Shown here one piece after another: positions 26,964 through 59,614 of a DNA stretch of 64,000 nucleotides. Both the position numbers and the translations under genes were made by a program. The stretch comes from Lingula anatina (taxonomy: Eukaryota > Animalia > Brachiopoda), in NCBI GenBank assembly GCA_051362555.1, contig CM120649.1, positions 124,001 to 188,000 on the forward strand, in the 5' to 3' direction. Each line of letters opens with the position of its first letter. Position 1 is the stretch's first letter. The notes below the pieces were generated by a model. That model was not told the origin of the DNA, ran no database searches, and was given only the letters and a program-made list of their open reading frames with translations.

Positions 26964-27579
26964 TATTACTGGTATGTAGGTCTTCAGTCGCTCTCGAGTC
27001 AGCTTTTCCAGTCTCATCTAGCTTAATTAATTTTTTAAAATTATTTAATTAAAATATTATTAACAGCAAAATAAAAAGTACTAAATAAAGTGTTTTGTTC
27101 TCATATTTTAATTGAAAGGTGTATTGGGCGTATCAGGCTCCTTTTCTGTGTCACAGCTGCTGGCCTAGTAGAAGTTTAGCAATAGAAGTAATGTACCTCC
27201 GTGACCTTGTACTCTCCACGAATGCACTCGGGTCACCGGAAATACTCTCTAAGCAGTCAACATAAACTACTGGTATTACTGGTATGTAGGTCTTCAGTCG
27301 CTCTCGAGTCAGCTTTTCCAGTCTCATCTAGCTTAATTAATTTTTTAAAATTATTTAATTAAAATATTATTAACAGCAAAATAAAAAGTACTAAATAAAG
27401 TGTTTTGTTCTCATATTTTAATTGAAAGGTGTATTGGGCGTATCAGGCTCCTTTTCTGTGTCACAGCTGCTGGCCTAGTAGAAGTTTAGCAATAGAAGTA
27501 ATGTACCTCCGTGACCTTGTACTCTCCACGAATGCACTCGGGTCACCGGAAATACTCTCTAAGCAGTCAACATAAACTA
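26964..27579. repeat. Tandem duplication (2 x 306 bp, 4-bp spacer) of the MED12 proximal promoter/5'UTR
   Basis: 26964-27269 and 27274-27579 read identically; the second copy ends 2 nt before the ATG. Confidence 0.93.
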
Positions 27580-27590
27580 AGATGGCGGCC
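27545..27590 (+). promoter_or_regulatory. ETS-like (ACCGGAAAT) and YY1-like (AAGATGGCGGC) motifs at the MED12 start
   Basis: Motif matches only; typical of housekeeping promoters. Confidence 0.4.
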
Positions 27591-27674
27591 TTCCCGAGTC
27601 AAGATAATAGGTCGCTTAAAAAGCCGCGTTTGGGTCCTCCAGATGTCTATCCACAAGAACACAGACAAAAAGAG
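27582..27674 (+). CDS. MED12: MED12 exon 1
   Basis: [31 protein letters not shown], donor GAG|gtaaaa. Confidence 0.95.
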
Positions 27675-30600
27675 GTAAAATAAACTGTTTTTTTATATCT
27701 AGATGTTTACTTTAGTTCTTACCGCTGTTGATTGGTTGAAAACTGGTTAGAAATTGCCCTGGGAAAATGTCGGCTTCTTTTTAAAGAAACGACTCATTGA
27801 TAAAGCCGATTGCCGATTAGGATTCCTTAGATTGTTTATTGTTTTCATTTAATTGTGATATACTGTACTTACATCAAAAGTTCATTTTTGAGTGGAATAC
27901 TTTTTAATATTAGTGATCTCGATTGCTATGGCTATTACCGTTCTATATTACTCAGCACAGCAGGTGCTTCACATCATTGAAGAGACATTAATAATGAAAT
28001 TCTGTAGCGATTTGGGGTGAGTGCAGAAAAATCACCGACCAGACCAGGAATCGAACCCGGGACCCCTCGCTTACAGGGCGAGTGCTCTTACCTACTGAGC
28101 TACCCGGCCGGTTCTACCTGCCCCTGGCACTACACTCCTCCCCCCCCCAAATGCCGAAAGACGCGAGTCCTATCTCGCAACACCGCTGCCACCTTTGTAG
28201 CGATTTGGGGTGAGTGCAGAAAAATCACCGACCAGACCAGGAATCGAACCCGGGACCCCTCGCTTACAGGGCGAGTGTTCTTACCTACTGAGCTACCCGG
28301 CCGGTTCTACCTGCCCCTGGCACTACACTCCTCCCCCCCCAAATGCCGAAAGACGCGAGTCCTATCTCGCAACACCGCTGCCACCTTTGTAGCGATTTGG
28401 GGTGAGTGCAGAAAAATCACCGACCAGACCAGGAATCGAACCCGGGACCCCTCGCTTACAGGGCGAGTGTTCTTACCTACTGAGCTACCCGGTCGGTTCT
28501 ACCTGCCCCTGGCACTACCACTCCTCCCTCCCAAATGCCGAAAGACGCGAGTCCTATCTCGCAACACCGCTGCCACCATTGTAGCGGTTTGGGGCGAGTG
28601 CAGAAAAATCACCGACCAGACCAGGAATCGAACCTGGGACCCCTCGCTTACAGGGCGAGTGCTCTTACCTACTGAGCTACCCGGCCTGTTCTACCTGCCC
28701 CTGGCACTACAATTCAATAGAAACGATTTCTTCCGACTTAAATCGGAAATTTAATTTTTTAACAGTTTTCCGCCTTGAGAGACCCCCAGATATACGATCA
28801 TTGGGACACCAAGCGATTCTTCCTTTTTTCTAACAACCCAAAATCTCGTCTAAAATCACCATGCACAAATCTGAAGTTGGGAGAAAATGAAAATCAAACG
28901 TATGGCATTTAGTGGGAGGGGGGAGGGGTACACTGCTGAACTACCCCTTCCCCCTGTGTCTCTCTCCTTCCCCAATACCCTACACATCAAATCAAGGCAC
29001 TGGGCAGTGGCAGTGAACATGTATGTTCTTGTTGGTTTCAGGATGAATTGACTCATGTCAGTGTGAAGCAAGGGTTCAACAACATCCCTCACTTCAATGA
29101 CGAATATGGATCTGCAAAACATGTCACAGTGATGCAAATGCAAAATGCCGTAAGTAGAAAAAAGGGTAGCTTATGAAATGTATTAGTATGATAAAAATAT
29201 TGTCAATTTACAGTGCTGGGTAGAAGTGTTTGTTTCTTACATCTGATTGGTAAGTGATTAGTAATTAGAGGAAAAACATATTAAGACTTAGATTTATTAA
29301 CCTACTGGTATTGATTTACAAGATAGTAACTTATTCTTTATTTCATTTATTATTTCATTTTTGTAGGTACAACTATGTATGGTAGAGCTGGTGCAGAAAC
29401 AGTGTGTATTTTTTAGTTTGATTTTAAAAAAGAATACCATTTTAGAATACTGAAAATCATTTGTAGATGTCCCACTATTTCAGATTGGCAGCAGTCTAAG
29501 TGCAATCATAGCTAAGAAGACAGATCTTAACACACTACAAGATACTGGGAAAAAGAAACCTATTATCAACACAAAGGACAACTTCTGGCCAGTAAGTGAT
29601 AATATCATCAGCAGTTATCTAGAAATGTTTTTAAATTATGTATAGAGAGACTGAAATAAACAAGTTTTTAAAAATTTATCTGGATATTTTAGTCATGAAT
29701 TTTTCTCCCTTTGGACCCCAATATAGAGTTGCTTGTCTTTGGCATTAGCATTTGATATTTTTAAAAGCCCCATATATATATATATATAAAGACGCGACAC
29801 CAAAGTCAACAAAATAAAAAGCAAATAGAATGATGGCGTATATGATAAAATAAATAATGTTATAATAGCCATCACTATACAACATTGTTTAGATTTAAGA
29901 TTTTAATTAGGCTACCTTTGTGATAAATTATCGGTTTATTTAATGAAGCTTGATTATAGTTTATATTGTGGTTGACTGCAAAGCTGCCAGTTTACTTTCC
30001 TCGAAAGTCTTCAGTACTAGACTAGGAAACAAGGCTCCCTCCACAGCTCAGTCTGAGCCATTTGAACACTGCATAGCACATGTCATTGTATTAATTGTCA
30101 GCATAATTGTGTCATTTAAGGTCACAGCAAGGTCAAAGCAGGCCATAGAGAATTGGTTCAAAGACTTGGCCGGGAGTAAACCTCTGACACAGATTGGGAG
30201 AAAAGTAAAATACCTTAGTGTGGCTCGACATTTTAAAGATTTTAAATTACTGTAGCCTAACATTTAAAAGTATTTGAGCTAATGTAGACTAAACAGTTGT
30301 ATATAATGAACAATCATTTGAACACTACTGTACCATACACGCATATGTACTCATGCACACACACCCACTAAAAAAGAAAAATTAATAAACAAATTAATCA
30401 AAAGAATAGATGGATAATGGTGATGATAATAATGATTATAATTATCATTATTATTATTATAATTATATTTTTAAGGAATATTATATGGAAAAGATTGGGT
30501 GGTCTTCTGAGAGAAAAACAAATTCTGAATAAATTGCTTCTTGTACGTTAATTACAGCAGGATGTTATAATTATTTCATTACTTTTATAACAGGTCCCTG

Positions 30601-33600
30601 TTTTCAACAAGAGGGAAGAAATCTTTACCACGCTGTGTGAATACAATGTTCCTTTAATCCGGGCTGCGTGGTTCCTGAAGATGAACAACGCCTATACTGT
30701 AGCCATGAATGAATCCAAGACCAAGTCCAAGAAACAGAACATAGACCCTTCTAGTGGTAAGAAATAGAACATAGACCCTTCTAGTGGTAAGAAACAGAAC
30801 ATAGACCCTTCTAGTGGTAAGAAATAGAACATAGACCCTTCTAGTGGTAAGAAATAGAACATAGACCCTTCTAGTGGTAAGAAACAGAACATAGACCCTT
30901 CTAGTGGTAAGAAACAGAACATAGACCCTTCTAGTGGTAAGAAATAGAACATAGACCCTTCTAGTGGTAAGAAATAGAACATAGACCCTTCTAGTGGTAA
31001 GAAACAGAACATAGACCCTTCTAGTGGTAAGAAACAGAACATAGACCCTTCTAGTGGTAAGAAACAGAACATAGACCCTTCTAGTGGTAAGAAATAGAAC
31101 ATAGACCCTTCTAGTGGTAAGAAACAGAACATAGACCCTTCTAGTGGTAAGAAACAGAACATAGACCCTTCTAGTGGTAAGAAACAGAACATAGACCCTT
31201 CTAGTGGTAAGAAACAGAACATAGACCCTTCTAGTGGTAAGAAACAGAACATAGACCCTTCTAGTGGTAAGAAACAGAATATGATAAACCACCCCCTCCC
31301 AAAAATAAAAAGTAAAAAAGAAACAAAGAGAAAAAAGCACATAATGTAAATATTTGTGGTTGATAAAGAAAAAACCCTGTTGAAAATAAACTCTATATTA
31401 GGTGAGGTTGGTTTCTCTGTTGTGTAAGATATTATATTTTACTCTTTCTTCTGCAGACTGGACCATCACAATCTACAGCTGTCTCTGTTGTGTGTATTAA
31501 ATATTATATTTTACTACATCTTCTCCAGACTGGACCATCACAATCTACAGCTGTCTCTGTTGTGTGTATAAAATATGATATTTTACTACATCTTCTCCAG
31601 ACTGGACCATCACAATCTACAGCTGTCTCTGTTGTGTGTATTAAATATGATATTTTACTACATCTTCTCCAGACTGGACCATCACAATCTACAGCTGTCT
31701 CTGTTGTGTGTATTAAATATGATATTTTACTACATCTCCAGACTGGACCATCACAATCTACAGGTTTCTTAAAGAACACTTAAGTAAGATCATAGAGCAC
31801 TATCACGGTGGCTCCTCGGGTCCACAGACCAGCTTCCTGACTGCCACCCAGACCTCTCATGTAGACATTGATCTGGCTTTAAAACAATGGCAGTATACCA
31901 CCAGACTGGCCAGACATATGTATGAGGTAACCAAGGCTTTAACACTGTCTTAACATATGTATAAGATGTATAGTTGGGTGGTGCTTCTGTCACTGTTTGG
32001 ATAAATCAAGAATAAATGTACCAAGACTGCCATTGATGAGGAGTGTATGGAAATAATTATGTAAAAATTTATGTGTGGGATATTTATGGAAGGTGGGAAA
32101 GAAACTGCAATTTGTGTCTGCTCCAATAGTCCATCATTGCCCAGCAAGATACCATTGTCAGGTTCAGGCATTTGATTATAGTAACCTCTACGTAAGGATA
32201 CCTTGACACTTACATATTGGGGTTGAGAGAGTAAAACGGTTGCTTGAAACTGTCATTGTGTCCCTGGGTGCATAATATGATGATGAAATTATGTGATTTT
32301 TACTGATTATCATTTATTTATTTACTAATTTATTTAATTATTTTTTTACTAATTATGTATTTATTTACTAATTTATTTATTTCTTTTTTTATTTCCCCAG
32401 GAGGGTTTGCTGGACAGACATGAGTTTCTGATTTGGTTGGTAGACACCGTGGATAAACTAAAGTCTCCGGATGACAATGTCCTGAAATTACTGCTGATGC
32501 AGGTGCTGCAGGTTAGTGCTTGTCATTGAATACCTTGTACACAGCTCATTTCAATATGTGGAGCAGTTATGACTTATTGTTTTTAATGTAAATGGTTTTT
32601 ATTACAAAATTCAAAGATCCTCATTGACTACTAGTAATTTAAATGTCTATTGTTTTTTCTCAATATTTGTCTTAAATATTGGAGTCCCTGTTGTCCTATC
32701 ATTCCAGTATGTAGATGAGATTACGTGTGCCCAGAGTATCTCCAGAAAGCTGGCCCACTTCTGTTGTAAAAAGTTGTTGTTGTCCTATCATTCCAGTATG
32801 TAGATGAGATTACGTGTGCCCAGAGTATCTCCAGAAAGCTGGCCCACTTCTGTTGTAAAAAGTTGGCCCTGATGTGCAATGAGACAGGTTACTCCACGCC
32901 ACGCTCTCAGTCGCCGCTGGTCACAGCTAACGCTAACGGGTAGGTCTCTGCTCTGGTTTGTTTTTGCAAAAAAAAAAAATTAGCCGAACATTTTGTATTA
33001 TACCACTGCTGGGGCTTTGAACAATAGGACAATTGCACTTGTATTAGGTGTACAGGTTTGTCTGTATTTTCATACACTTCGGTGCATTCATCCTATTGTT
33101 AGAAGCGCCAGTTGTGGTATAAGTCAGTTACAACTACTCATCGTCCACTGTATGCAATATAATTACATTCTTGTATGTCATATACAGTGAACAACTCATG
33201 TTATAACTAGTTCTTTATGAATTTTAAAGAATTTTGTTTCATGTCTGTGTATGGTGAAATATGTTAGTATGTGAGTGTATGTGTGCACGTGTGTGGAGGG
33301 GAATGTGTGTGTGTGTGTGTGTGTGTGTGTATGAGTGCACGTGTGTGGAGGGGTATGTGTGTGTGTGCATGCATGTGTGTGGAGGGGTATGTGAATGTAT
33401 GTGTGTGTGTGTGTGCACATGTGTGAAGGGGTTTGTGAGAAAATAAAGAGAATGTAACACAATGGTTCTCTTTTTGTGGACTGGCATAACTCATTTCTTG
33501 ACTTCACTGCCTATGATGCTCTGCTTTGCTCAGCTTTGAGAAATGCATTGTTCATAAAAAATGTTGGTTAATTAGATTGGAATATTTCAACAAATAGTGA

Positions 33601-45500: not shown

Positions 45501-48500
45501 TTTATAATATTTCTTTTCTGTCTAAATATTCAGTATGTTCTGTCCATTAATTAGAAAAAAAATAGTTTTGATTCTGTTTGGTATACTTCAGGTACAAGAT
45601 TATTTATTTGGCTGTTTGTTCCCAGGCCAATTATGCAGTATGCACTGTCCATTGATTTAAGAAAATCTAAAAGTATAGTTTCTGTTCCACATAACTTAAA
45701 TACAATTATATTAATTATCCATATATTCACAGGCCAAGTATTCAGAATTCTTCAGTGGTGCTTGCTCTAAAGTAAAACAAACATTGTACGCCGCCATTGT
45801 GCCGTCTGCCTCCAACTTCCGCTGGGACCCACAGTTCATGACAGATGTCATAGAAAATGCTAAGTAAGTTTTTGAGTCAAGGGGTGGTCACATGTCAGAC
45901 ATGTGATGATCACATGATAACCACATGTTGGATGTTTTTAATATGTGGGGACAACTTGTATGAACCATATGACAGCCATAATAATGGTAGATATTATTCA
46001 TGAAACATAATGTGTTAATACCTTGGACAATATTTACTCAGTTCTGAATATTATATATATATTTTTTTTTTTTGGCAACATTAATTTTTTGTCATTCTTT
46101 TATTATTAATTTTACATTGTGCACGAGACAAATTAGTCAATATAATGATATGATTATTATGGCAATTTTTGGTTCAGAATCTCAGTTTTTAATTTTTCAT
46201 TTTTAGGTCCAGACCAGATATCCAAGCCATAAAGCAGTTAAACGAGTCTTCTCAGAATCGTTACAGTTTTGTGTGCAATGCTCAGATCAACATATGCAAT
46301 GCCCAGGGTGCAGAAAGGTGAGCCTGGGGTCCTCTCAAGGCTGGTTTAGAACTAAGATAATCTGTTGACTAGCCTGGGGTCCTCTCAAGGCTGGTTTAGA
46401 ACTAAGATAATCTGTTGACTAGCCTGGGGTCCTCTCAAGGCTGGTTTAGAACTAAGATAATCTGTTGACTAGCCTGGGGTCCTCTCAAGGCTGGTTTAGA
46501 ACCAAGATAATCTGTTGACTAGCCTGGGGTCCTCTCAAGGCTGGTTTAGAACCAAGATAATCTGTTGACTAGCCTGGGGTCCTCTCAAGGCTGGTTTAGA
46601 ACTAAGATAATCTGTTGACTAGCCTGGGGTCCTCTCAAGGCTGGTTTAGAACCAAGATAATCTGTTGACTAGCCTGGGGTCCTCTCAAGGCTGGTTTAGA
46701 ACCAAGATAATCTGTTGACTAGCCTGGGGTCCTCTCAAGGCTGGTTTAGAACCAAGATAATCTGTTGACTAGCCTGGGGTCTTCTTAAGGCTGGTTTAGA
46801 ACTAAGATAATCTGCTGAGTATCTGATCTGTAAGTCATACCAGAACCCACCAGAAAGCTTGCTGCGTAAATCCAGTGGATCAGCCATATTGGATCTGAGG
46901 ATCAGTTAGTCCCTGGATCATCATGGTTTTAAACAGGCCCTTACACTATTCTACTGAGCAGTTAGTCCCTGGATCATCATGGTTTTAAACAGGCCCTTAC
47001 ACTATTCTACTGATCAGTTAGTCCCTGGATCATCTTGGTTTTAAACAGGCCCTTACACTATTCTACTTAGCAGTTAGTCCCTGGATCATCATGGTTTTAA
47101 ACAGGCCCTTACACTATTCTACTGCCGTTTTAAAGGAAATAAATTATAAAACATGAATCTTAATTTTAGATTATAGTCATTGTTATAGTTATTGTAGCAA
47201 GTTATCATAAGTAATTGTACCACCAGCGTTAGCGCTGGCGGTACACATGGTTTCGGTCCCTTCCGGATCGTTCCGCCGGCTCTGTTGGCTCCGCCGGCTC
47301 CGCCGGACGGCTACCGTTACCGCTTCTCCTCCTAGACGGTAAGGGCCCCCGTACCCATCTCATGGATTTAGGTCACCTATAATCTCAACTCGTTCCACGT
47401 AAAATTTGGGCTTTGTCGGTATTGGGGTCTGGGTGTGGCACTCATTGCAATGCACCCTTGTCTAAAAATGGCAAAATTAAATGCTAATTATCTACCCTAC
47501 GGAAGGAGTTATGGGAAAAATTTCTATAGACGGCTTTCCAAAAGTCATATGTGTAGATTTCAAATATACCCTTGGATTTGACCTTTGACCTCTACTTCAA
47601 GGTCAAATGGGCCAAAATTTTCAAAAAAATGAAATTTTTTACGAAAAAAATTTTTTTTGCCCTGTTATTCAGACACCACACAGACTTAACCAATAATATT
47701 ATTGGAAAGTGTTACCCTCCAGGTCATCTTTCATCTCCATGAATTTGGGGTCAATCGGTGCATTTTCACGGGAGTAGCGGCCATAAGATACCGAAACTGA
47801 AAACTGTCTCTAATTCGGGAACCGTTAATGCTAGAGACCCATTCTTTTTTGCATTTTGTAGAGCATGTAAAGCCCAACACTGGAGGTGGTCTCGTTTTTT
47901 TTGTATTCCATACGGTTTTCGAGTTACGCTGTATCAAAAAGTACATATTGGTGGTAAAAGCAAAATGTGCAGTACGGTAATGGATAATAAATTTTGAACT
48001 CTGGAAAAATAAAACATAAGGCTTGGCAAAGCAGACAACTTGTGTTCAAAAATGACATTATTTCATCAAATTTGAACTTCTGAAACTTCAGAGCACCTCC
48101 TATTTCAAGAATTTTGACCAAAATGACATTTTCTTTATTTTAATTAATTTTTTCTGTACGAAATTTAAGGCACATTATGGTAACTCCAAAATTATAACAT
48201 CTAGTCCCTTATATCTCCAAAACTGGCAGAGATAGGTCCATAGTTACTATTGAAGTTGAATAGGAAGTCATATACTGGCAATCTTACTATGACCTTGAAA
48301 TTGACCTTTGACCTACTTTTCACCATGAACTGAACTTTGCTAACTTTTCTTCCCTTTTATCTCCAAAACTGGCTGAGATAGGTCCATAGTTACTATTGAA
48401 CTTGAATAGGAAGTCATATACTGGCAATCTAAATGTGACCTTAAAATTGACCTTTGACCTACTTTACACCATGAACTGAATTTTGCAAATTTTGCTTTCC

Positions 48501-51500
48501 TTTTATCCCCAAAACTGGCAGAGATAGGTCCGTAGTTACTATTGAACTTGAATAGGAAGTCATATACTGGCAATCTATATGTGACATTAAAATTGACCTT
48601 TGACCTACTTTTCACCATGAACTGAATTTTGCAAATTTTGCTTTCCTTTTATCTCCAAAACTGGCTGAGATACAGGGTTACCACTTAATATGGAATATTA
48701 TTTTTTGGCGAATAAATTTTCTACAATATATTTAATTTCTCTCAAAGTACATTAAATCCAAAGCTGAGGTGTCACTCCATGTGTAGCCAGATGTGTTACC
48801 TAATTACCACACAACTCTCGAAACAATTGATGCATGCAGTTGCATGTTCTGTGGTCAGAAATGTGAGAGGTGGTCTTTTCGGCAATTTCTGCCCTTGTAT
48901 AAAAACGCATGGGTTTGGTCAATCTTTGGAGCGTGTTTAGAGAAGCAACAAAGGGATCGCTCTGAAACTTGACAGGTACCTTAGTGAAGATATGGTACGA
49001 CAGCAAAGCAACGCAGCGTACTATGGGATTCTTGCTCTCAGAGAAAATGGCCAGAAACGGACAGCCATTGCCAGGTAATTCAACATTTATCAGGAACCGT
49101 TTGTGAAGTCCTCCAAAGAAATGCTGCTACAGGGGCACCTACTCCAATACCTCGACCAGGGTGTCCGCGTATCACACCAAGAAGACAGGATCGCCTTCTC
49201 CTTAGTGGACGCCGTGCTGGTCGTACAAAGACAACCAGTGTCCTCAGAAAAGAGAGGCAGAATGTCATCCAAACGCCCGTTTCAAGGTCCCACGTGAACA
49301 AGATATTTCTGCAAGCCGGTTATTTTGCACGAAGGCCAGTAGGGAAACCACTGTTAACATCAGGTCATATACAGCGACGTCTGCAAAGGGTTGGGGACCA
49401 CGTGCGTTTGCAGCCAAAACACTGGAATCACGTTGTTTTCAGTGATAAGGCCAGATATGGATTTTTTAGGGTTGATCGTCGAATCCGTGTCCACCGACGT
49501 GTACGAGAGGCATAAAACAATGATTATGTACTGCCTAGGGTGAAAGGAGGGGATGGTAACGTCTCTGTTTGGGGAGCATTTCATGTCGGTGCCCAGAACC
49601 AGTTGGTTTTTCTAGGAGGCAACCTCATCCAGGATTCCTACAGAGACATTCTACAGCAAACAATGCTTCGATTGGTAAGATTCATCTTCAGGAACAACTT
49701 TGTGTACCAAGACGACTGCCCAACCCCACATCGAGGCCACAGAATCATCGTTTTTCTTCAAAACCAATGGGTTCAGCAACTGCCCTGGCCTGCAAACTCT
49801 CCAGATATGAACCCAATTGAAAATCTGTGGGCGGAAGTAACTCACAGAATTAATAGCTATGGTCCTCGGCCGGTAAATAGTGATGAACTGCGACAGGCAA
49901 ATATCACTGCGTGGAATGATATCCCCACCCAAACTCTAAAAAAACGTGTCACAGGATATGCCATGTAGGATGAGGGCGCTGCAAGCGGCTGCTGGAGGTC
50001 ATACCCGCAATTACTGACTTTTCATGATTTACTGTAGTGAGTTCTTTGACTGTGTAACATATCACTGTCCGGAGGCTATCATTTTCTTTAATATTTTATC
50101 TTAAAGTTTATACTGACATCAAAGTGTTGATATGGTTTTCTGGGGGTGTTCCTTTCTTTTGAATGGCATCTTATGTCAGATTTAATATTATTGACCAAAA
50201 TATCTCACAACAGAAGACTGGATGTTATTATCACTCAGTGACATACTTTTTTAATGACTCAAGCCAAAAGAAAATTATTCAGCACTCAAAAATAACAATG
50301 ATAAAAAATATTCCATATTAAGTGGTAACCCTGTAGGTTCATAGTTACTATTGAACTTGAATAGGAAGTCATATACTGGCAATCTAAATGTGACCTTGAA
50401 ATTGACCTTTGACCTACTTTTCACCATAAACTGAACTTTGCAAAATTTGCTTCCCTTTTATCTCCAAAACTGGCAGAGATAGGTCCATAATTACTATTGA
50501 ACTTGAATAGGAAGTCATATACTGGCAATCTACATGTGACCTTAAAATTGACCTTTGACCTACTTTTCACCATGAACTGAACTTTGCAAACTTTTCTTCC
50601 CTTTTATCTCCAAAACTGGCTGAGATAGGTCCATAGTTACTATTGAACTTGAATAGAAAGTCATATACTGGCAATCTAAATGTGACCTTGAAATTGACCT
50701 TTGACCTACTTTTCACCATGAACTGAATTTTGCAAATTTTGCTTCCCTTTTATCTCCAAAACTGGCTGAGATAGGTCCATAGTTACTATTGAAGTTGAAT
50801 AGGAAGTCCTATACTGGCAATCTAAGTGTGACCTTGAAATTGACCTTTGACCTACTTTTTATCATGAACTGAACTCTGTTTATTTCTTTCTCTTTTAGCT
50901 TCAAACTTGACAGAGATAGGTCCATAGTTACTCTTGAACTTGAATAGGAAGTCATATACTGGCAATTTACTGTGACCTTGAAATTGACCCTTGACCTACC
51001 TTATGAAGAACTTAAATTTGATTGTACCATATATATTTTTTGCAATAGTTTAAAAATTCTTGTTGATTGCATTTTTACAGCTTGTCAAGCACAAAACTGG
51101 TGGCTGTGTCCCTTATTTTGTGTATGTGGGGGTCTATACGAATGCGTTTGCTCCAGCTGGTGGTACAATATTTGGAGGCGGTATCGCCTCTCTGATCCTC
51201 TAGTTTTTTTAGTATTTTGTATGTTATAGTTTGGTTAATCTATATTTGAAACTAATTTGCAACTAATTTCTCCTTTTCTTAAAGGTTGAATGAAGTGTCC
51301 ATTCTTTGCGCAGAGTTGACGGCATGCTGTAACTCTCTCAGCTCTGAATGGCTGGGGATTCTGCGTGCTCTCTGCTGCTCATCCAATCACTGTTGTGGTT
51401 ACATAGATGTCTTGGCTCTCCTTGACGTTAGTGATCTGTCCTTGCATGATTTGTTAGCAGTGTTCACGTCAGTGCTGATAGCCAGGCATTGTTTTTCTAT

Positions 51501-54500
51501 GGAGGATTTTGTGAAACATGTGGCCTTACCGTCTCTGCTGGCAGCTTGCCCCTCAGGTAAGAAATATTTGACATCTTGCCCCTCAGGTAAGAAATATTTG
51601 ACAGCTTGCCCCTCAGGTAAGAAATATTTGACATCTTGCCCCTCAGGTAAGAAATATTTGACAGCTTGCCCCTCAGGTAAGAAATATTTGACAGCTTGCC
51701 CCTCGGGTAAGAAACAAGGTAATCAACACTTTAACTAATTTGTCTCTTTTTAAGTATGGCAAATATATTGTCAGTCTTAGTAAATAATTGTTAAGGATTT
51801 GCAGGGAACACTCTGATATTTTGGATTGTGGAACTTCAACAATTTTGAGACAAATAGTTGATAATCATTAATAGAATTCGAAAGGTTTAGAAATTTAAAC
51901 CAAATATGTAAATATTTAAACCAAATTCTGTGAAAATGTGATGTGAGAAAACTGGACAACAATATGTCTGCATGAATGCAGAGATGTAATGTCTAACAGT
52001 TTAGTAACAATCAAACTATAAAACCTGTCAATGATGGGAGTCTGCCCTAAGTAATAGCGGAATATGCATGAAAGCAAAGTTTGCAACTCTGCTGATAAAA
52101 ACAAAAATGGCTTTTATTTTATTTATTTATTTACTTAATTATTTTTTTGACTAAGATTCTTTGGCTTATTTTGTATCAGTTTATCGAATTTGTGATAATT
52201 ACCCCATCAAAATTCCAGAAATTCAAAACAAAAAGTTTTAATTCCACATTTCAGCTGGAGGAGACCAGGATGCTGAGCCCGGCGCCAGACTGACCTGCCA
52301 CCTATTGTTGAGACTCTTCAAGTCTGACTCGGACAACAATACTCCATTCCCAAGCTCCAAGAGTTCCTCCTATATCAAGGCATCATGTGATAGGCACCTG
52401 CTCTCAGCCGCTCATAATGGAATCACAGTGGGACCAATGCTGGCAGTTCTGAAGGCAATGTTGGTGTTAGGTAACTAGTTATAACCTGTTAGATGAATTG
52501 ATCTCCAGTCCTCTGTATTATCACAGTGTATAATCACAGTGGGACCAATGCTGGCAGTTCTGAAGGCAATGTTGGTGTTAGGTAACTAGTTATAACCTGT
52601 TAGATGAATTGGTCTCCAGTCCTCTGTATTATCACAGTGTATAATCACAGTGGGACCAATGCTGGCAGTTCTGAAGGCAATGTTGGTGTTAGGTAACTAG
52701 TTATAACCTGTTAGATGAATTGATCTCCAGTCCTCTGTATTATCACAGTGTATAATCACAGTGGGACCAATGCTGGCAGTTCTGAAGGCAATGTTGGTGT
52801 TAGGTAACTAGACATAAGAATCTTAGAAAGTTGATAACCTGTTAGATGAAGGAAACTATACTTCACTTTGAAAACAAAATAATTTACATAGATCTCCAGT
52901 CCTCTGTATTGAATAATGGACACAGATATATTTTACAAATTCATAAAACATTCCAGGAGATTCCTGTGGCAGTGACTCTGACAGTAAATCAAAGAATTCC
53001 TCTAATGCCAGTAAATCTGAAGACATAATAGTGAACTTATTTGAAAGTCTTGATGATGACAGTGACAGAAGATACTTGTAAGTAGCTGAGAGATTAACAA
53101 GATAAATGAAGATGATTCATGTAAACTGTGATAATTAAATATCACACACACTGTACTTTCACATACTGCAGATGTTATAAATTCTGAAAGTATAATACAT
53201 TATTTTTCATGAATATTTTGCAATATACATCTTAGAGCGCATTCATATAAACACATAATACTAGTTGGGTGTGTTCAACTCTGCTGGGGCTCTCACTGAG
53301 TACAATCAGTTTAACTGAATGACACACTTGGAGCAGTTATCCCACCAATCAAAAAAATTACCCCCCTCCTCCCACTTGCTTGAGGTGGGGGTGTCATATG
53401 ATAAAGCTGATTGAACTAAGCCAGAATCCCCACAGTGTTGGAATGACACAACTAATACGATGTGTCTATCTGAATGGGGTGTTAATGCTTTCAGTAAAAG
53501 GGGTCCAGAGACGGCAGGTCTTAGTGAGTTTGCCAAACATGCCCTGAAGGAGATCTGTCAACAGGAGTGGGTGCGAGAGAAGTTTCTTAAAGATCCCGAG
53601 GCTTTGCTTACACAAGACATGCTGCTAGATGTGATGTTGTCACCTGCACAGGTAACATTAAGAAATATGATGTTGTCACCTACACAGGTAACATTGAAAA
53701 ATATGATGTTGTCATCTGCACAGGTAACATTAAGAAATATGATGTTGTCATCTGCACAGGTAACATTAAGAAATATGATGTTGTCATCTTCACAGGTAAC
53801 ATTGAAAAATATGATGTTGTCATCTGCACAGGTAACATTAAGAAATATGATGTCGTCATCTGCACAGGTAACATTGAGAAATATGATGTTGTCATCTGCA
53901 CAGGTAACATTAAGAAATATGATGTTGTCATCTGCACAGGTAACATTGAAAAATATGATGTTGTCATCTGCACAGGTAACATTAAGAAATATGATGTTGT
54001 CATCTGCACAGGTAACATTAAGAAATATGATGTTGTCATCTGCACAGGTAACATTAAGAAATATGATGTTGTCACCTGCACAGGTAACATTGAGAAATAG
54101 TTTGTCACAGACTGGGTTCCCACACCTAGATCTATCTAACAGGATCGATCCATCTCCAATGGGTATTATGGTATTGTAACAACAATTTATATAAAAGATT
54201 AAAATGTTTATTACAGAATTAAAAGTCCATGTCTCACATGCCACGTCGCATCCCGACTTCCCGCTTCACACTCATGACCTCTGACCTACATCACGTGGCT
54301 TATTACATCATTACATCACATTACTTCTTTTCTTTTTTTTTTTTTTTTTTTTTAATTTGAATATTATGACGGAACAACACATAACATATATACAATAAAA
54401 GTAATAAACAATAACACAAAATGCATATAATACTAAACGTCAACTGGATTCATAAAATTGTCAACTTTAACTTTAATTCTTAATGAAAACGTTTGAAAAA

Positions 54501-57500
54501 ACTACAGTTTCTCGTTATTTCTCTCCTCGTGGAATCATCTCTCGCAGTAATCATTGTTCCCTTTTTACGACATATTGTAAGTGGTGTGGATTCATATGGT
54601 GTTTGGGATTTATTGCATTTGGTGTTCTTCAAGAGAACTGTATCACCCACTGTTAACGTAGATTTCTTAACATTTGTTTTACGATCGGCATAGTATTTCA
54701 TCTTTTTCTTGCTGTTTTGGTCATTACGCCTGATTTTAGAATCAGTGTTTGGTGTTTGAGGCACATGTGGAAGTTTACAGCCGATATCCCTTCCGAAAAG
54801 AGCGGTTGCGGGAGGAATACCAGTGGAAGTATGTGGCGTTGTTCTGTAATCAAGGAGAAAATCATTCATGGCTTGTTTCCAGTTGCGCTTTGTTGCGATG
54901 GCACCCTTGATAGACTTTTTTAAAGGGCCCATAAAACGCTCTGTTACTCCATTTGCCTGAGGCCACAGTGGTGTTATCTTTCGGTGTTTGAATCCCGTTT
55001 TCTCGGCATAATCTGCAAAGTCATTTCCATTGAATGGAGGCCCATTATCCGTTTTTAATACCGATGGTATGCCGAACTCTGCAAATACTTTATCCAACCG
55101 TGGGATAACACTCTGTGCTGAAGTCGAGGTCAAAATTTCAACAATGACGTATTGTGTGTATTCATCAGTTATCACTAAAAGTTTGTGACCACTCGGTCCT
55201 TCTCCAAAATCAGCACTAACTTCTGTCCAAGGAACGATTGGAAGATCTGTCATGCGAAGCGGCTCTCGCGTGATAATCTTCGTTGAAATTTGACAGTGTT
55301 TACACGATTTCACTGTGTCTTCGACAAGTTTATGCATTCTAGGAAACCACACCTTCTCGCGTAGTAAAGCAACAGTTTTCACAATCCCTTGATGTCCGCT
55401 ATGTGCAATACTCACGGCATGGCTATATAAACTTTCCGGCAAAACTATTTGTCGTCCTTTCAGAATTATTCCGTCAGGGTTTGAGATAGAAAGCTCCGAA
55501 CGACACTGATAAATGTTTTGGAAAATACTGAAATTCCCTTGTGGAGTCCAGTCATTTGTGACCATAGCATTTTTCACCGCTGCAAGTGTCACATCCTTTT
55601 CGGTTTCCTCTTTCACCATTTCAAGGGTCATTGCTTTTGGTTTCGAAGTACAGGCTAGATAATGAAGATACTCCTCTGCTATTATTTCCTCGGTACTTGA
55701 TGATAACTGATCAGTCTGATGTGTGGGGTGTCGGCTCAAGTAATCAGCAGGGTTGTCATGCCCTGGACGATACACAACCGTCATCTGGTAGGATTGTGTT
55801 TTCATGATCCAACGCTCGATACGCGCCGAAAGCTGGGCCTTGGGGTTGTTAAAGAGGCTCACAAGGGGTTTGTGGTCAGTGTGCACAATAAAATGGGCTC
55901 CGAATAAATAAATGTGAAAATGTCCACAGGCCCATGTGATTGCTAAAGCCTCTCGCTCGGTCTGTGAGTATCGCTGTTCTGTAGGAGTAAGCGCTCTGCT
56001 GGCGTACTGTATAACGCGGCCGTCCTGTGTTAATACAGCAGATATGCCTACCGGACTCGCATCTGTGTATACCTCCGAGGTTTTCGACGGGTTGAAGTAC
56101 GCTAAAGTCGTTGCTTGGCTTAACTTTGACTTGAGTTCCTTCACAGCATCATCGTGTTTAGATGTCCAAGACCATGGTGTGTTTTTCTTTGTTAGCTCAC
56201 GTAAATCATGTGTTAATGACGCGTAATTTGGAATGAATTGCGACCCACAGAAATTCGTCATTCCTAAGAAACTCCTGACTTCTGTAGCGTTGGTTGGATT
56301 GGGGAGATTTAATATGTTTTCAATTTTGCTGTGGCTTGGTTTGATACCCTCCGCGCCAAAAACGTGCCCTAAAAATTCTAATGATGTTTGATTGAATTCA
56401 CATTTCTCTGCGTTGAGTGTTAGATTTCTTTCGCGCAAACGTTGAAAAAGAGCACGTAGGTTGTTGTCGTGGTCAGATTGCGATGTCCCGTAACACAAAA
56501 TGTCATCACTGATGTTCACGACTCCTTTCAAACCAGACAAAGCTTGTCTAATGCTTTCCTGGAATATTTCACTTGCTGAATTCACTCCAAAAAATAATCG
56601 ACGGTATCTGTAGAGGCCAAGATGAGTGGCAAATGTAGTGATATAACGAGAATCTTCGTGTAATTCAAGTTGATTGTACCCCTGATTAAGATCAAGTTTC
56701 GAAAAATAGCAGGCGCCAGTCAACATTGTTTTTAATTCATCAAGCGTCGGTGTTGCATGTCTTTCTCTTCTAATCGCCTTGTTTGCTGCGCGCATATCTA
56801 CACAGACACGTACCTTCCCAGGTGATTTCGGTTTGGGAACAACTACGATGGGAGACACCCAGGGCGTAGGACCTGTAGCTTTCTCTATGACACCCTGTTC
56901 CTCATCCTTTTTAATCTGTTCCTCTATGTGTTTCCTAACGTGGAACGGAATGCGTCTATAACGCTGTGCTACGGGTTGTATGTTGTCGTCGATGTGAAGT
57001 TTTATCTCACCTTGCTTCAAACAACCAAGGCCATGGAAAATATCAGAAAATTCATCGTTCAATTTGATATGCTTGGAATGAATGTGATCACAACTCTTTA
57101 TTAATTGCAATTGTTGAGACGTATGCCAACTGAGAATAGGTTTCTCTCTGCCAGCTACCACACAAAACTTTGCGTCACAGCTAATTGCTCCAACCTGTAA
57201 GTGAGACGTGAATTTTCCCAACACATGAACTGAATTGTTTTCACTGCCATAGGCCTTGATTTTAGTACTTGAAATATGTAACGTTGGTCTTGGTTGTAAT
57301 TTATTGTACTCAAATTCAGAAATCAAATTTACAGTAGAGCCTGAATCAGCTAGAAAAATTATTTTCCTACCGTTCATCTCTATTTCAAAATGTGGGAGTT
57401 GGTCCATGTTCTCGGTCACTGCATGCGCTGCGAAGACATATCCATCCTCATCAGATCCTGTGCATTCTTTCTCATTTTCAGTCACATCAGAATTTGCACG

Positions 57501-59329: not shown

Positions 59330-59614
59330 GTAAGGCCTGGGCTTAGACTCCTGCAGGTAAGACCTGGGCTTAGACTCCTGCAGGTAAGACCTGGGCTTAG
59401 ACTCCTGCAGGTAAGACCTGGGCTTAGACTCCTGCAGGTAAGACCTGGGCTTAGACTCCTACAGGTAAGACCTGGGCTTAGACTCCTGCAGGTAAGACCT
59501 GGGCTTAGACTCCTGCAGGTAAGACTTGGGCTAAGACTCCTGCAGGTAAGACCTGGGCTTAGACTCCTGCAGGTAAGACCTGGGCTTAGACTCCTGCAGG
59601 TAAGACCTGGGCTT
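59318..59614 (+). repeat. 27-bp tandem repeat (11 donor copies) spanning the exon 25 donor
   Basis: unit AGACTCCTGCAG|GTAAGACCTGGGCTT. Confidence 0.96.

What the first reader, a model, noticed from the sequence alone, without database searches (positions are those of the whole stretch)
28003..28711. Miniature LTR retroelement (TRIM) whose LTRs carry a tRNA gene, in a tandem LTR-I-LTR-I-LTR-I-LTR array: a possible animal, tRNA-based analogue of Cassandra
Seen in sequence: the ~192-bp repeat in MED12 intron 1 resolves into four 132-bp units with TGTAG...CTACA ends alternating with three ~60-bp spacers. The array begins and ends on the 132-bp unit and is flanked by ATTC on both sides. On the minus strand one spacer starts, 1 nt after the LTR, with TGGTGGCAGCGGTG (the other two read AGGTGGCAGCGGTG), and each spacer ends in a G/A tract next to the following TG. 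More than half of each LTR is a 74-nt cloverleaf with A/B boxes, anticodon TGT and a trailing T5. Established knowledge: TGGTGGCAGCGGTG is complementary to the 3' end (CACCGCTGCCA-CCA) of metazoan tRNA-Leu(AAG/TAG). TRIMs have an LTR-PBS-PPT-LTR structure and can form tandem arrays. Plant Cassandra TRIMs carry 5S rRNA Pol III promoters in their LTRs. Inference: this is a ~325-bp non-autonomous LTR family that captured a tRNA-type Pol III promoter. The T5 implies that full-length RNA needs read-through or Pol II, or that each LTR releases a small tRNA-like RNA. The Leu PBS and 4-bp TSD differ from the Gypsy in this window, so its autonomous partner is a different element.
Basis: partly seen in the sequence, partly recalled or inferred. 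Interest (0 to 1): 0.92.

Follow-up and report, generated by a model that had tools for sequence, protein, structure and literature searches.

The report
Known Helenus tRNA-LTR mini-retrotransposon array
This is an ordinary copy of an already catalogued jumping gene, Helenus-1_LAn (a tiny retrotransposon with a tRNA-like sequence in each end repeat), sitting as a four-repeat tandem array in the first intron of the MED12 gene, where it likely grew in place from a single insertion.

Summary
The array (28003-28711, minus strand) has four LTRs and three internal segments, a 4-bp target duplication, a tRNA-Leu primer site, a purine tract and a 74-nt tRNA-like sequence in each LTR. Kojima 2024 (PMC10886601) named tRNA-carrying TRIMs 'Helenus'. 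Its Helenus-1_LAn consensus from the brachiopod Lingula anatina (LTR 132, internal 59, TSD 4) matches one LTR here at 132 of 132 bases, compared by eye. Tandem TRIM arrays are also published, including for a fish Helenus. Public DNA runs show the LTR ends joined to mixed flanks, so copies are dispersed. Spliced RNA reads place the array in MED12 intron 1, antisense. All three internal segments share a minority base, so the array likely came from one progenitor. One small question stays open: a T-run follows the tRNA in most Helenus LTRs, so a full-length Pol III RNA would need read-through. That is untested.

The parts
27999..28002 (+). Target-site duplication, left copy (ATTC)
   Evidence: only k=4 of 1-8 matches on both flanks
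28003..28134 (-). LTR4 (3'-most LTR), 132 bp; identical to the published Helenus-1_LAn-LTR
   Evidence: printout compared by eye with Data S1: 132 of 132
28036..28109 (-). tRNA-like sequence in LTR4 (LTR 26-99) with A and B boxes, anticodon TGT, and C in place of the conserved U33
   Evidence: (57.8 bits)
28027..28031 (-). T5 run after the tRNA in LTR4 (LTR 104-108), a candidate Pol III terminator; same run starts at 28224, 28416 and 28608
28135..28195 (-). Internal segment I3 (61 bp): first PBS base changed, G-run 2 longer than in most other copies, purine tract
   Evidence: (table 4)
28196..28327 (-). LTR3, 132 bp, 1 substitution vs LTR4 (position 50, breaks a D-stem pair); tRNA-like part 28229-28302
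28328..28387 (-). Internal segment I2 (60 bp): first PBS base changed, purine tract
28388..28520 (-). LTR2, 133 bp: one extra G at the start and 2 substitutions vs LTR4, one shared with LTR3; tRNA-like part 28421-28494
28521..28579 (-). [quoted passage not shown]
   Evidence: (Fig. S2A tRNA line, honeybee), by eye
28580..28711 (-). LTR1 (5'-most LTR), 132 bp, 4 private substitutions vs LTR4; tRNA-like part 28613-28686
   Evidence: (61 bits)
28712..28715 (+). Target-site duplication, right copy (ATTC)
27582..27674 (+). Context: MED12 exon 1 coding part; splice donor at 27675
27675..29041 (+). Context: MED12 intron 1, which holds the array antisense; exon 2 starts at 29042
   Evidence: loose ends read exon 2 sequence

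Best explanation
The array is four LTRs and three internal segments of the published TRIM family Helenus-1_LAn, lying antisense in MED12 intron 1 between two copies of a 4-bp target site; it likely arose from one copy inserted by a Gypsy-type helper element and then likely grew in place by unequal exchange. Shown here: family identity, ends, TSD, PBS, purine tract, tRNA-like head, dispersed LTR ends, intron position. Inferred mechanism of the family: Pol III would start near the tRNA 5' end in the 5' LTR (LTR ~26), usually stop at the T5 (LTR 104-108), but sometimes read through the PBS, internal segment and 3' LTR and stop at the second T5. That gives a ~270-nt RNA in which the tRNA body is the repeated R region. 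Host tRNA-Leu(AAG/TAG) would prime minus-strand DNA at the PBS, the purine tract would prime the plus strand, and RT, RNase H and integrase from an unidentified Gypsy would insert it with a 4-bp TSD. Inferred history of this locus: a two-LTR copy became three LTRs, then the unit carrying the LTR position-50 change and the PBS first-base change was duplicated to give four. The tRNA-like part most likely acts as a promoter, not as a decoding tRNA. My odds: family identity ~0.97; in-place growth ~0.7; Pol III read-through as the source of the template ~0.55.
For: Identity: LTR4 132 of 132 and I1 57 of 59 vs Data S1 (by eye); Table S1 lists LTR 132, internal 59, full 323, TSD 4. Dispersal: in 4 of 4 DNA runs, contigs leave the LTR at its CA end (28001-28003) and TG start (28134) into mixed flanks (agreement 0.52-0.69 where more than one contig). 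Summed contig depth over the LTR is about 60-400 times the flank in the 3 runs that cover the flank; the tool says this is not a copy number. One progenitor: all 3 of 3 internal segments carry the same base at internal position 28. The other base is in the published consensus, in 89-100% of contig depth in 4 of 4 runs and in 37 of 37 RNA reads covering the site. LTR2 and LTR3 share one change, and I2 and I3 share another. Helper class: the paper finds that only Gypsy families share PBSs with animal Helenus and lists two Gypsy families with this Leu PBS in other animals. Not a decoding tRNA: no match to the conserved U33, three G-U pairs in the acceptor stem (sequence), a broken D-stem pair in 2 of 4 copies, and the family is absent from the paper's Fig. 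S1 list of plausible tRNAs. Read-through is plausible: a T5 leaked in vivo in a human reporter (PMC3141230 passages), and yeast tRNA genes read through (PMC4937561 abstract).
Against: No direct sign of Pol III transcription. In four RNA-seq runs (about 6-25% of each read; 84 reads laid in total, MED12 exon reads included) the element reads come from other copies and show no start or end pile-up. They are mostly antisense in X16, on both strands in X12, sense in X15 and absent in X18. Ten X12 reads run past the LTR's CA end into other flanks, as expected for copies inside host transcripts. Only 2 sense-strand reads (X15) cross from LTR into PBS, against 12 antisense. At least two of these libraries are poly(A)/oligo-dT selected, and by library type none should recover an 80-nt RNA well (my knowledge). 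In vitro, human Pol III stopped fully at T5. LTR1 has 4 private changes while LTR4 has none, which simple in-place expansion explains only if LTR1 was later converted or the crossovers fell past LTR position 125. No helper was found.
Confidence: 0.9

Rival explanations
1. Same family, but the array was inserted ready-made as a concatemer, from a read-through multimeric RNA or by template switching during reverse transcription.
For: PMC7215508 proposes template switching and concatenated transcripts for Cassandra arrays (passages). One TSD around the whole array and one shared progenitor base fit this as well. LTR1's four private changes could reflect a second template.
Against: The outer LTRs differ at 4 of 132 sites, whereas one reverse-transcription event should make them identical (established LTR biology). 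The nested sharing pattern (LTR2=LTR3, I2=I3) and the G-run series 7, 8, 9 look like stepwise duplication.
Confidence: 0.25
2. The template RNA is made by Pol II (host read-through or an LTR promoter) and the T5 really terminates Pol III. The tRNA-like part then yields only a short by-product or serves a non-promoter role such as a structural or packaging signal.
For: A T5 lies upstream of the PBS in every LTR and T5 is a complete stop for human Pol III in vitro. The RNA reads seen look like passengers of host transcripts. The Helenus paper says its Pol III promoter is not experimentally validated.
Against: No TATA-like or AATAAA/ATTAAA motif on the element strand. Only 25 bp of LTR lie upstream of the tRNA. 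A/B boxes are conserved across Helenus families. A T>=4 run after the B box is kept in 22 of 25 LTR consensus sequences shown (counted by eye; one record's header was not in view), which fits a needed 3'-end signal.
Confidence: 0.3
3. It is a host cluster of functional tRNA-Thr(UGU) genes in tandem.
For: ARAGORN and Rfam call four tRNAs above threshold; two copies fold into a near-cloverleaf by minimum free energy.
Against: TG...CA ends, PBS, purine tract, TSD, dispersed LTR-bounded copies and the exact match to a retroelement consensus; C at position 33 and a broken D-stem pair in two copies.
Confidence: 0.02
4. It is a tandem array of a tRNA-derived SINE, or a minisatellite that happens to contain a tRNA.
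For: tRNA-type head; the window has many other minisatellites.
Against: No A-rich or simple-repeat tail. The array starts and ends on the LTR unit (n LTRs, n-1 internals). Other copies break at both LTR ends.
Confidence: 0.01

Closest known systems
Helenus-1_LAn (Helenus group, TRIMp3; Kojima 2024, PMC10886601; whole main text read, supplement parts 1, 7, 9, 10 of 11 plus two searches)
   Same: LTR4 identical to the consensus LTR (132 of 132); I1 57 of 59; same lengths, same 4-bp TSD, same tRNA-in-LTR plan. Consensus built from the brachiopod Lingula anatina, so the window is probably from that species or a close relative (inference).
   Different: This copy is a 4-LTR/3-internal array with a few private changes. 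The paper reports tandem arrays for the zebrafish family LTR-11_DR only, does not list the Lingula families in its PBS figure (S2) or tRNA figure (S1), and gives no copy number for them.
Cassandra (plant TRIM with 5S rRNA in its LTRs; PMC7215508, passages)
   Same: Pol III-type small-RNA gene with promoter and terminator in each LTR; arrays of alternating LTRs and internal domains (up to 12 units).
   Different: 5S rRNA (type 1 promoter) instead of tRNA (type 2); plants; 565-860 bp; Pol III transcription was validated for Cassandra and not for Helenus.
biv-TRIM of bivalves (PMC6934838, passages)
   Same: Animal TRIM that forms LTR(x)-I(x-1) arrays, up to 58 terminal repeats.
   Different: No canonical PBS; no tRNA in the terminal repeats is described in the passages seen.
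Helenus-2_LAn and Helenus-3_LAn (sister families, same supplement)
   Same: Same Leu-type PBS start and similar lengths (314 and 322 bp), 4-bp TSD.
   Different: Different LTR sequences; the window's array matches family 1.

Membership tests
Helenus-1_LAn | LTR sequence matches the family consensus | tested here: met
   132 of 132 for LTR4; 131 of 132 LTR3; 128 of 132 LTR1; LTR2 2 substitutions plus 1 inserted base (by eye)
Helenus-1_LAn | Internal segment matches the 59-bp consensus | tested here: met
   I1 57 of 59; I2 and I3 2 substitutions plus 1 or 2 extra G (vs 37, by eye)
Helenus (TRIM with tRNA-derived LTR) | tRNA-like sequence with A and B boxes inside the LTR | tested here: met
   LTR positions 26-99 in 4 of 4 LTRs
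Helenus (TRIM with tRNA-derived LTR) | Unit under 1000 bp with LTR-PBS-PPT-LTR plan and no room for a protein | tested here: met
   LTR-I-LTR = 323-325 bp; internal segments 59-61 bp
Helenus (animal) | PBS complementary to the 3' end of a tRNA | tested here: met
   14 of 14 bases of I1 vs the tRNA-Leu-AAG line of Fig. S2A (honeybee tRNA); the host's own tRNA-Leu was not available
Helenus (animal) | 4-bp TSD | tested here: met
   ATTC on both sides; TSDs of other copies could not be read from contig ends
TRIM | Dispersed copies with fixed LTR boundaries | tested here: met
   Loose ends into mixed flanks at both LTR ends in 4 of 4 DNA runs
TRIM | Empty allele with a single target site | tested here: inconclusive
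   None among the rows shown; in 3 of 4 runs the flank contig runs 28 bases into the LTR, short of the tool's 31-base bridging rule; 1 of 4 does not cover the flank
TRIMp3 (Pol III-promoter TRIM) | Transcription by RNA polymerase III from the internal promoter | tested here: inconclusive
   Few reads, mixed strands, no start or end pile-up; libraries unsuited to short Pol III RNA
Helenus (animal) | Mobilised by a Gypsy element sharing the PBS | not testable with these tools
   No genome held. The window's Gypsy has a 5-bp TSD and a Ser-type PBS
Cassandra | 5S rRNA-derived sequence in the LTR | tested here: not met
   Rfam scan of 27900-28800 at E<=1 lists only tRNA
Functional tRNA-Thr(UGU) gene | Canonical anticodon loop (U33) and intact stems | tested here: not met
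   C at 33 in 4 of 4; D-stem pair broken in 2 of 4; tRNAscan-SE isotype model not available here

The most novel reading that the evidence does not exclude
The T-run right after the tRNA is a conserved working part of Helenus: the tRNA body is the R region, and the element replicates only when Pol III skips the terminator in the 5' LTR and obeys the same terminator in the 3' LTR. Every LTR, solo or arrayed, would then mostly release an ~80-nt tRNA-like RNA, so terminator leakiness sets the transposition rate, and a tandem array like this one yields a ladder of multimeric templates. At 323 bp with a near-consensus, high-copy family, Helenus-1_LAn would be a minimal test system for the still unvalidated TRIMp3 model.
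Probability: 0.35. Interest if true: 0.4.

Novelty: already known. Interest (0 to 1): 0.1.

Why it matters
As a discovery it matters little: the class and this exact family were described in 2024. The practical point is annotation: ARAGORN and Rfam call four tRNA-Thr genes here that are retroelement LTRs, so tRNA gene counts in this genome are likely inflated, as the paper showed for rust fungi. The remaining scientific value is the untested question of how a Pol III transcript passes the terminator in the 5' LTR; this short, near-consensus family is a convenient place to test it.

Tried and rejected
No whole genome is held for this window, so genome-wide BLAST, copy counts, TSD census and a helper search could not be run; public sequencing runs were used instead. 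Within the window, blastn of the LTR and internal segment finds no other copy (only hits with E>=0.9 outside the array). The look-up of sequencing runs: no RNA holder listed, which is no evidence on expression. The joint 28195 to 28003 in DNA contigs and RNA reads is the normal 5'LTR-internal junction of any two-LTR copy and was not counted as evidence of arrays elsewhere. The reads were laid only on 27400-28200 (left flank, LTR4, I3), so the number of units at this site in other individuals and the right junction were not tested. No RNA reads fell on the intron flank 27697-27993, so RNA gave no genotype. X3 does not cover the flank. The window's Gypsy was rejected as helper (5-bp TSD, Ser-type PBS). 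Minimum-free-energy folds gave a near-cloverleaf for 2 of 4 copies only and were not weighed further. Literature searches: TRIM+tRNA+LTR+Cassandra+non-autonomous (18 papers, 17 listed), Helenus+retrotransposon (6, 5 listed), TRIMp3 (6 listed, 1 relevant); none of those listed is an experimental follow-up on Helenus transcription, but most subscription journals are not in the library. Supplement parts 2-6, 8 and 11 were searched but not read through, and figures are not held. Two look-ups of earlier findings gave two unrelated LINE/histone notes and nothing by sequence.

Full report
Observation. On the minus strand it parses into LTR1 (28711-28580), I1 (59 bp), LTR2 (133 bp, one extra G at its start), I2 (60 bp), LTR3, I3 (61 bp) and LTR4 (28134-28003). 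ATTC flanks both ends; two random 4-mers of this window match with probability 0.0054. Each LTR holds a 74-nt tRNA-like sequence at positions 26-99, called tRNA-Thr(TGT) by ARAGORN and scored 49-61 bits by Rfam RF00005. A T5 follows at positions 104-108, the only T>=4 run on the element strand. [quoted passage not shown] S2A of PMC10886601; I2 and I3 have the first base changed. All three internal segments end in a purine tract.

Surroundings. MED12 runs on the plus strand. Exon 1 coding sequence is 27582-27674 and exon 2 starts at 29042. RNA reads leave exon 1 at the donor and continue in exon 2 sequence (6 reads in X16, 8 in X18), and downstream exons hit Pfam Med12 and Med12-LCEWAV (2 of the 4 MED12 pieces scanned; the two short N-terminal exons gave no hit). 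The array is therefore in intron 1, antisense, 328 bp after the donor.

What it is. A literature search returned Kojima 2024, PMC10886601, as top hit. I read its whole main text and supplement parts 1, 7, 9 and 10 of 11, with two searches over the whole supplement. It defines Helenus as TRIMs with a tRNA-derived sequence in the LTRs, found in fungi, a plant and six animal phyla; animal families make 4-bp TSDs and share PBSs with Gypsy elements. Its Data S1 contains Helenus-1_LAn from the brachiopod Lingula anatina, listed as LTR 132, internal 59, full length 323, TSD 4. Compared by eye with the window, LTR4 is identical (132 of 132), LTR3 differs at 1 site, LTR1 at 4, LTR2 at 2 plus an inserted base, and I1 at 2 of 59. 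This is a member of a named family, not an analogue. Tandem arrays are known too: for the zebrafish Helenus LTR-11_DR, for Cassandra (PMC7215508, passages) and for bivalve TRIMs in the pattern LTR(x)-I(x-1) (PMC6934838, passages). A 2026 meeting report cites Helenus as established (PMC12859917, passages).

Independent evidence from public runs. No genome is held. Contigs of four DNA runs (at most 4 samples, 3 studies; one may be the window's source) were laid on 27400-28200. In 4 of 4 runs, contigs leave the LTR at its CA end and at its TG start into mixed flanks (33 further loose-end rows were not shown). Summed depth over the LTR is about 60-400 times the flank in the three runs that cover the flank; the tool warns this is not a copy number, so I take it only as a sign of a repeated family. 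In 3 of 4 runs the unique flank contig runs 28 bases into the LTR, suggesting the insertion is shared, but this is under the tool's 31-base bridging rule; no empty allele appeared among the rows shown.

History of the array (inferred). All three internal segments carry the same base at internal position 28. The published consensus, 89-100% of contig depth in four runs and 37 of 37 RNA reads over the site have the other base. The three segments therefore descend from one copy. LTR2 and LTR3 share a change at position 50, I2 and I3 share the PBS change, and the G-run goes 7 (one base substituted), 8, 9. The simplest path is two LTRs, then three, then four by unequal exchange or slippage in place (about 0.7). 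Insertion of a ready-made concatemer, proposed for Cassandra, is the rival (about 0.25); the 4 differences between the outer LTRs argue against a single reverse-transcription event, though they also need a later conversion or late crossovers under the in-place model.

How it likely works. From established LTR biology and the anatomy: host tRNA-Leu primes at the PBS, the purine tract primes the plus strand, and a Gypsy-type helper supplies RT, RNase H and integrase in trans; the helper was not identified. The tRNA-like part is more likely a promoter than a tRNA: it lacks the conserved U33, has three G-U pairs in the acceptor stem, has a broken D-stem pair in 2 of 4 copies, and the family is not in the paper's Fig. 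S1 list of plausible tRNAs. A Pol III RNA starting at the tRNA meets the T5 before the PBS. A T>=4 run after the B box is present in 22 of the 25 LTR consensus sequences displayed (counted by eye; one had its header out of view and lacks the run), so it is a family-wide feature. The paper's main text uses 'terminat-' twice, both for Cassandra. I commit to leaky read-through (about 0.55): the tRNA body serves as R, and the template is the ~270-nt RNA that passes the first T5 and stops at the second. Support is indirect: T5 leaked in vivo in a human reporter, though not in vitro (PMC3141230, passages), and yeast tRNA genes read through (PMC4937561, abstract). My RNA test did not support it: in four RNA-seq runs (about 6-25% of each read, 84 reads laid including MED12 exon reads) element reads come from other copies, are mostly antisense in X16, mixed in X12, sense in X15 and absent in X18, show no start or end pile-up, and only 2 sense reads cross LTR to PBS against 12 antisense. 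These libraries are poorly suited to short Pol III RNAs (my knowledge), so the result is inconclusive. Pol II or host read-through remains a rival (about 0.3).

Verdict. Observation confirmed, interpretation correct, novelty none: an array copy of Helenus-1_LAn. Interest 0.1. The boldest reading not excluded is that terminator skipping in the 5' LTR is the rate-setting step of Helenus replication and that every LTR sheds a tRNA-like small RNA (probability 0.35, interest 0.4 if true). The searches listed no experimental test of Helenus transcription, but the library lacks most subscription journals, and unread supplement parts and figures could bear on this.

Noticed in passing
window 54167-58595 (minus strand; ORF 58334-54480): Full-length Gypsy-type element inside MED12: one 1284-aa open frame with RT, RNase H and integrase, two identical 154-bp LTRs, 5-bp TSD, Ser-type PBS; so a very recent insertion.
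   Followed up: partly
window 48988-49968 (+), between 48205-48672 and 50334-50999: Tc1/mariner-like transposase in two frames split by a stop (HTH_Tnp_Tc3_2 below cut-off, DDE_3 above), lying between two arrays of the same 146-bp unit.
   Followed up: partly
window 30729-31279, 51542-51714, 53632-54099, 59318-59614: Four minisatellites (30, 30, 36 and 27 bp units) appear to start at MED12 exon ends, with each unit repeating the last exon codons and, in at least three, a GT donor-like site; these could offer alternative donors.
   Followed up: no
window 26964-27579: A perfect 310-bp two-copy direct repeat ends 2 bp before the MED12 start codon, so the promoter/5' UTR region is duplicated; real duplication or assembly artefact not checked.
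   Followed up: no
PMC10886601 Fig. S1 vs window 28036-28109: The pearl-oyster family Helenus-4_PiIm has the same unusual anticodon loop (C at 33, TGT) as this brachiopod family, hinting at a shared origin of the tRNA head across the two phyla.
   Followed up: no
window 28003-28195, run X16: In one stranded RNA run nearly all Helenus reads are antisense and many share a set of variants, suggesting one or a few diverged copies embedded in a host transcript.
   Followed up: no
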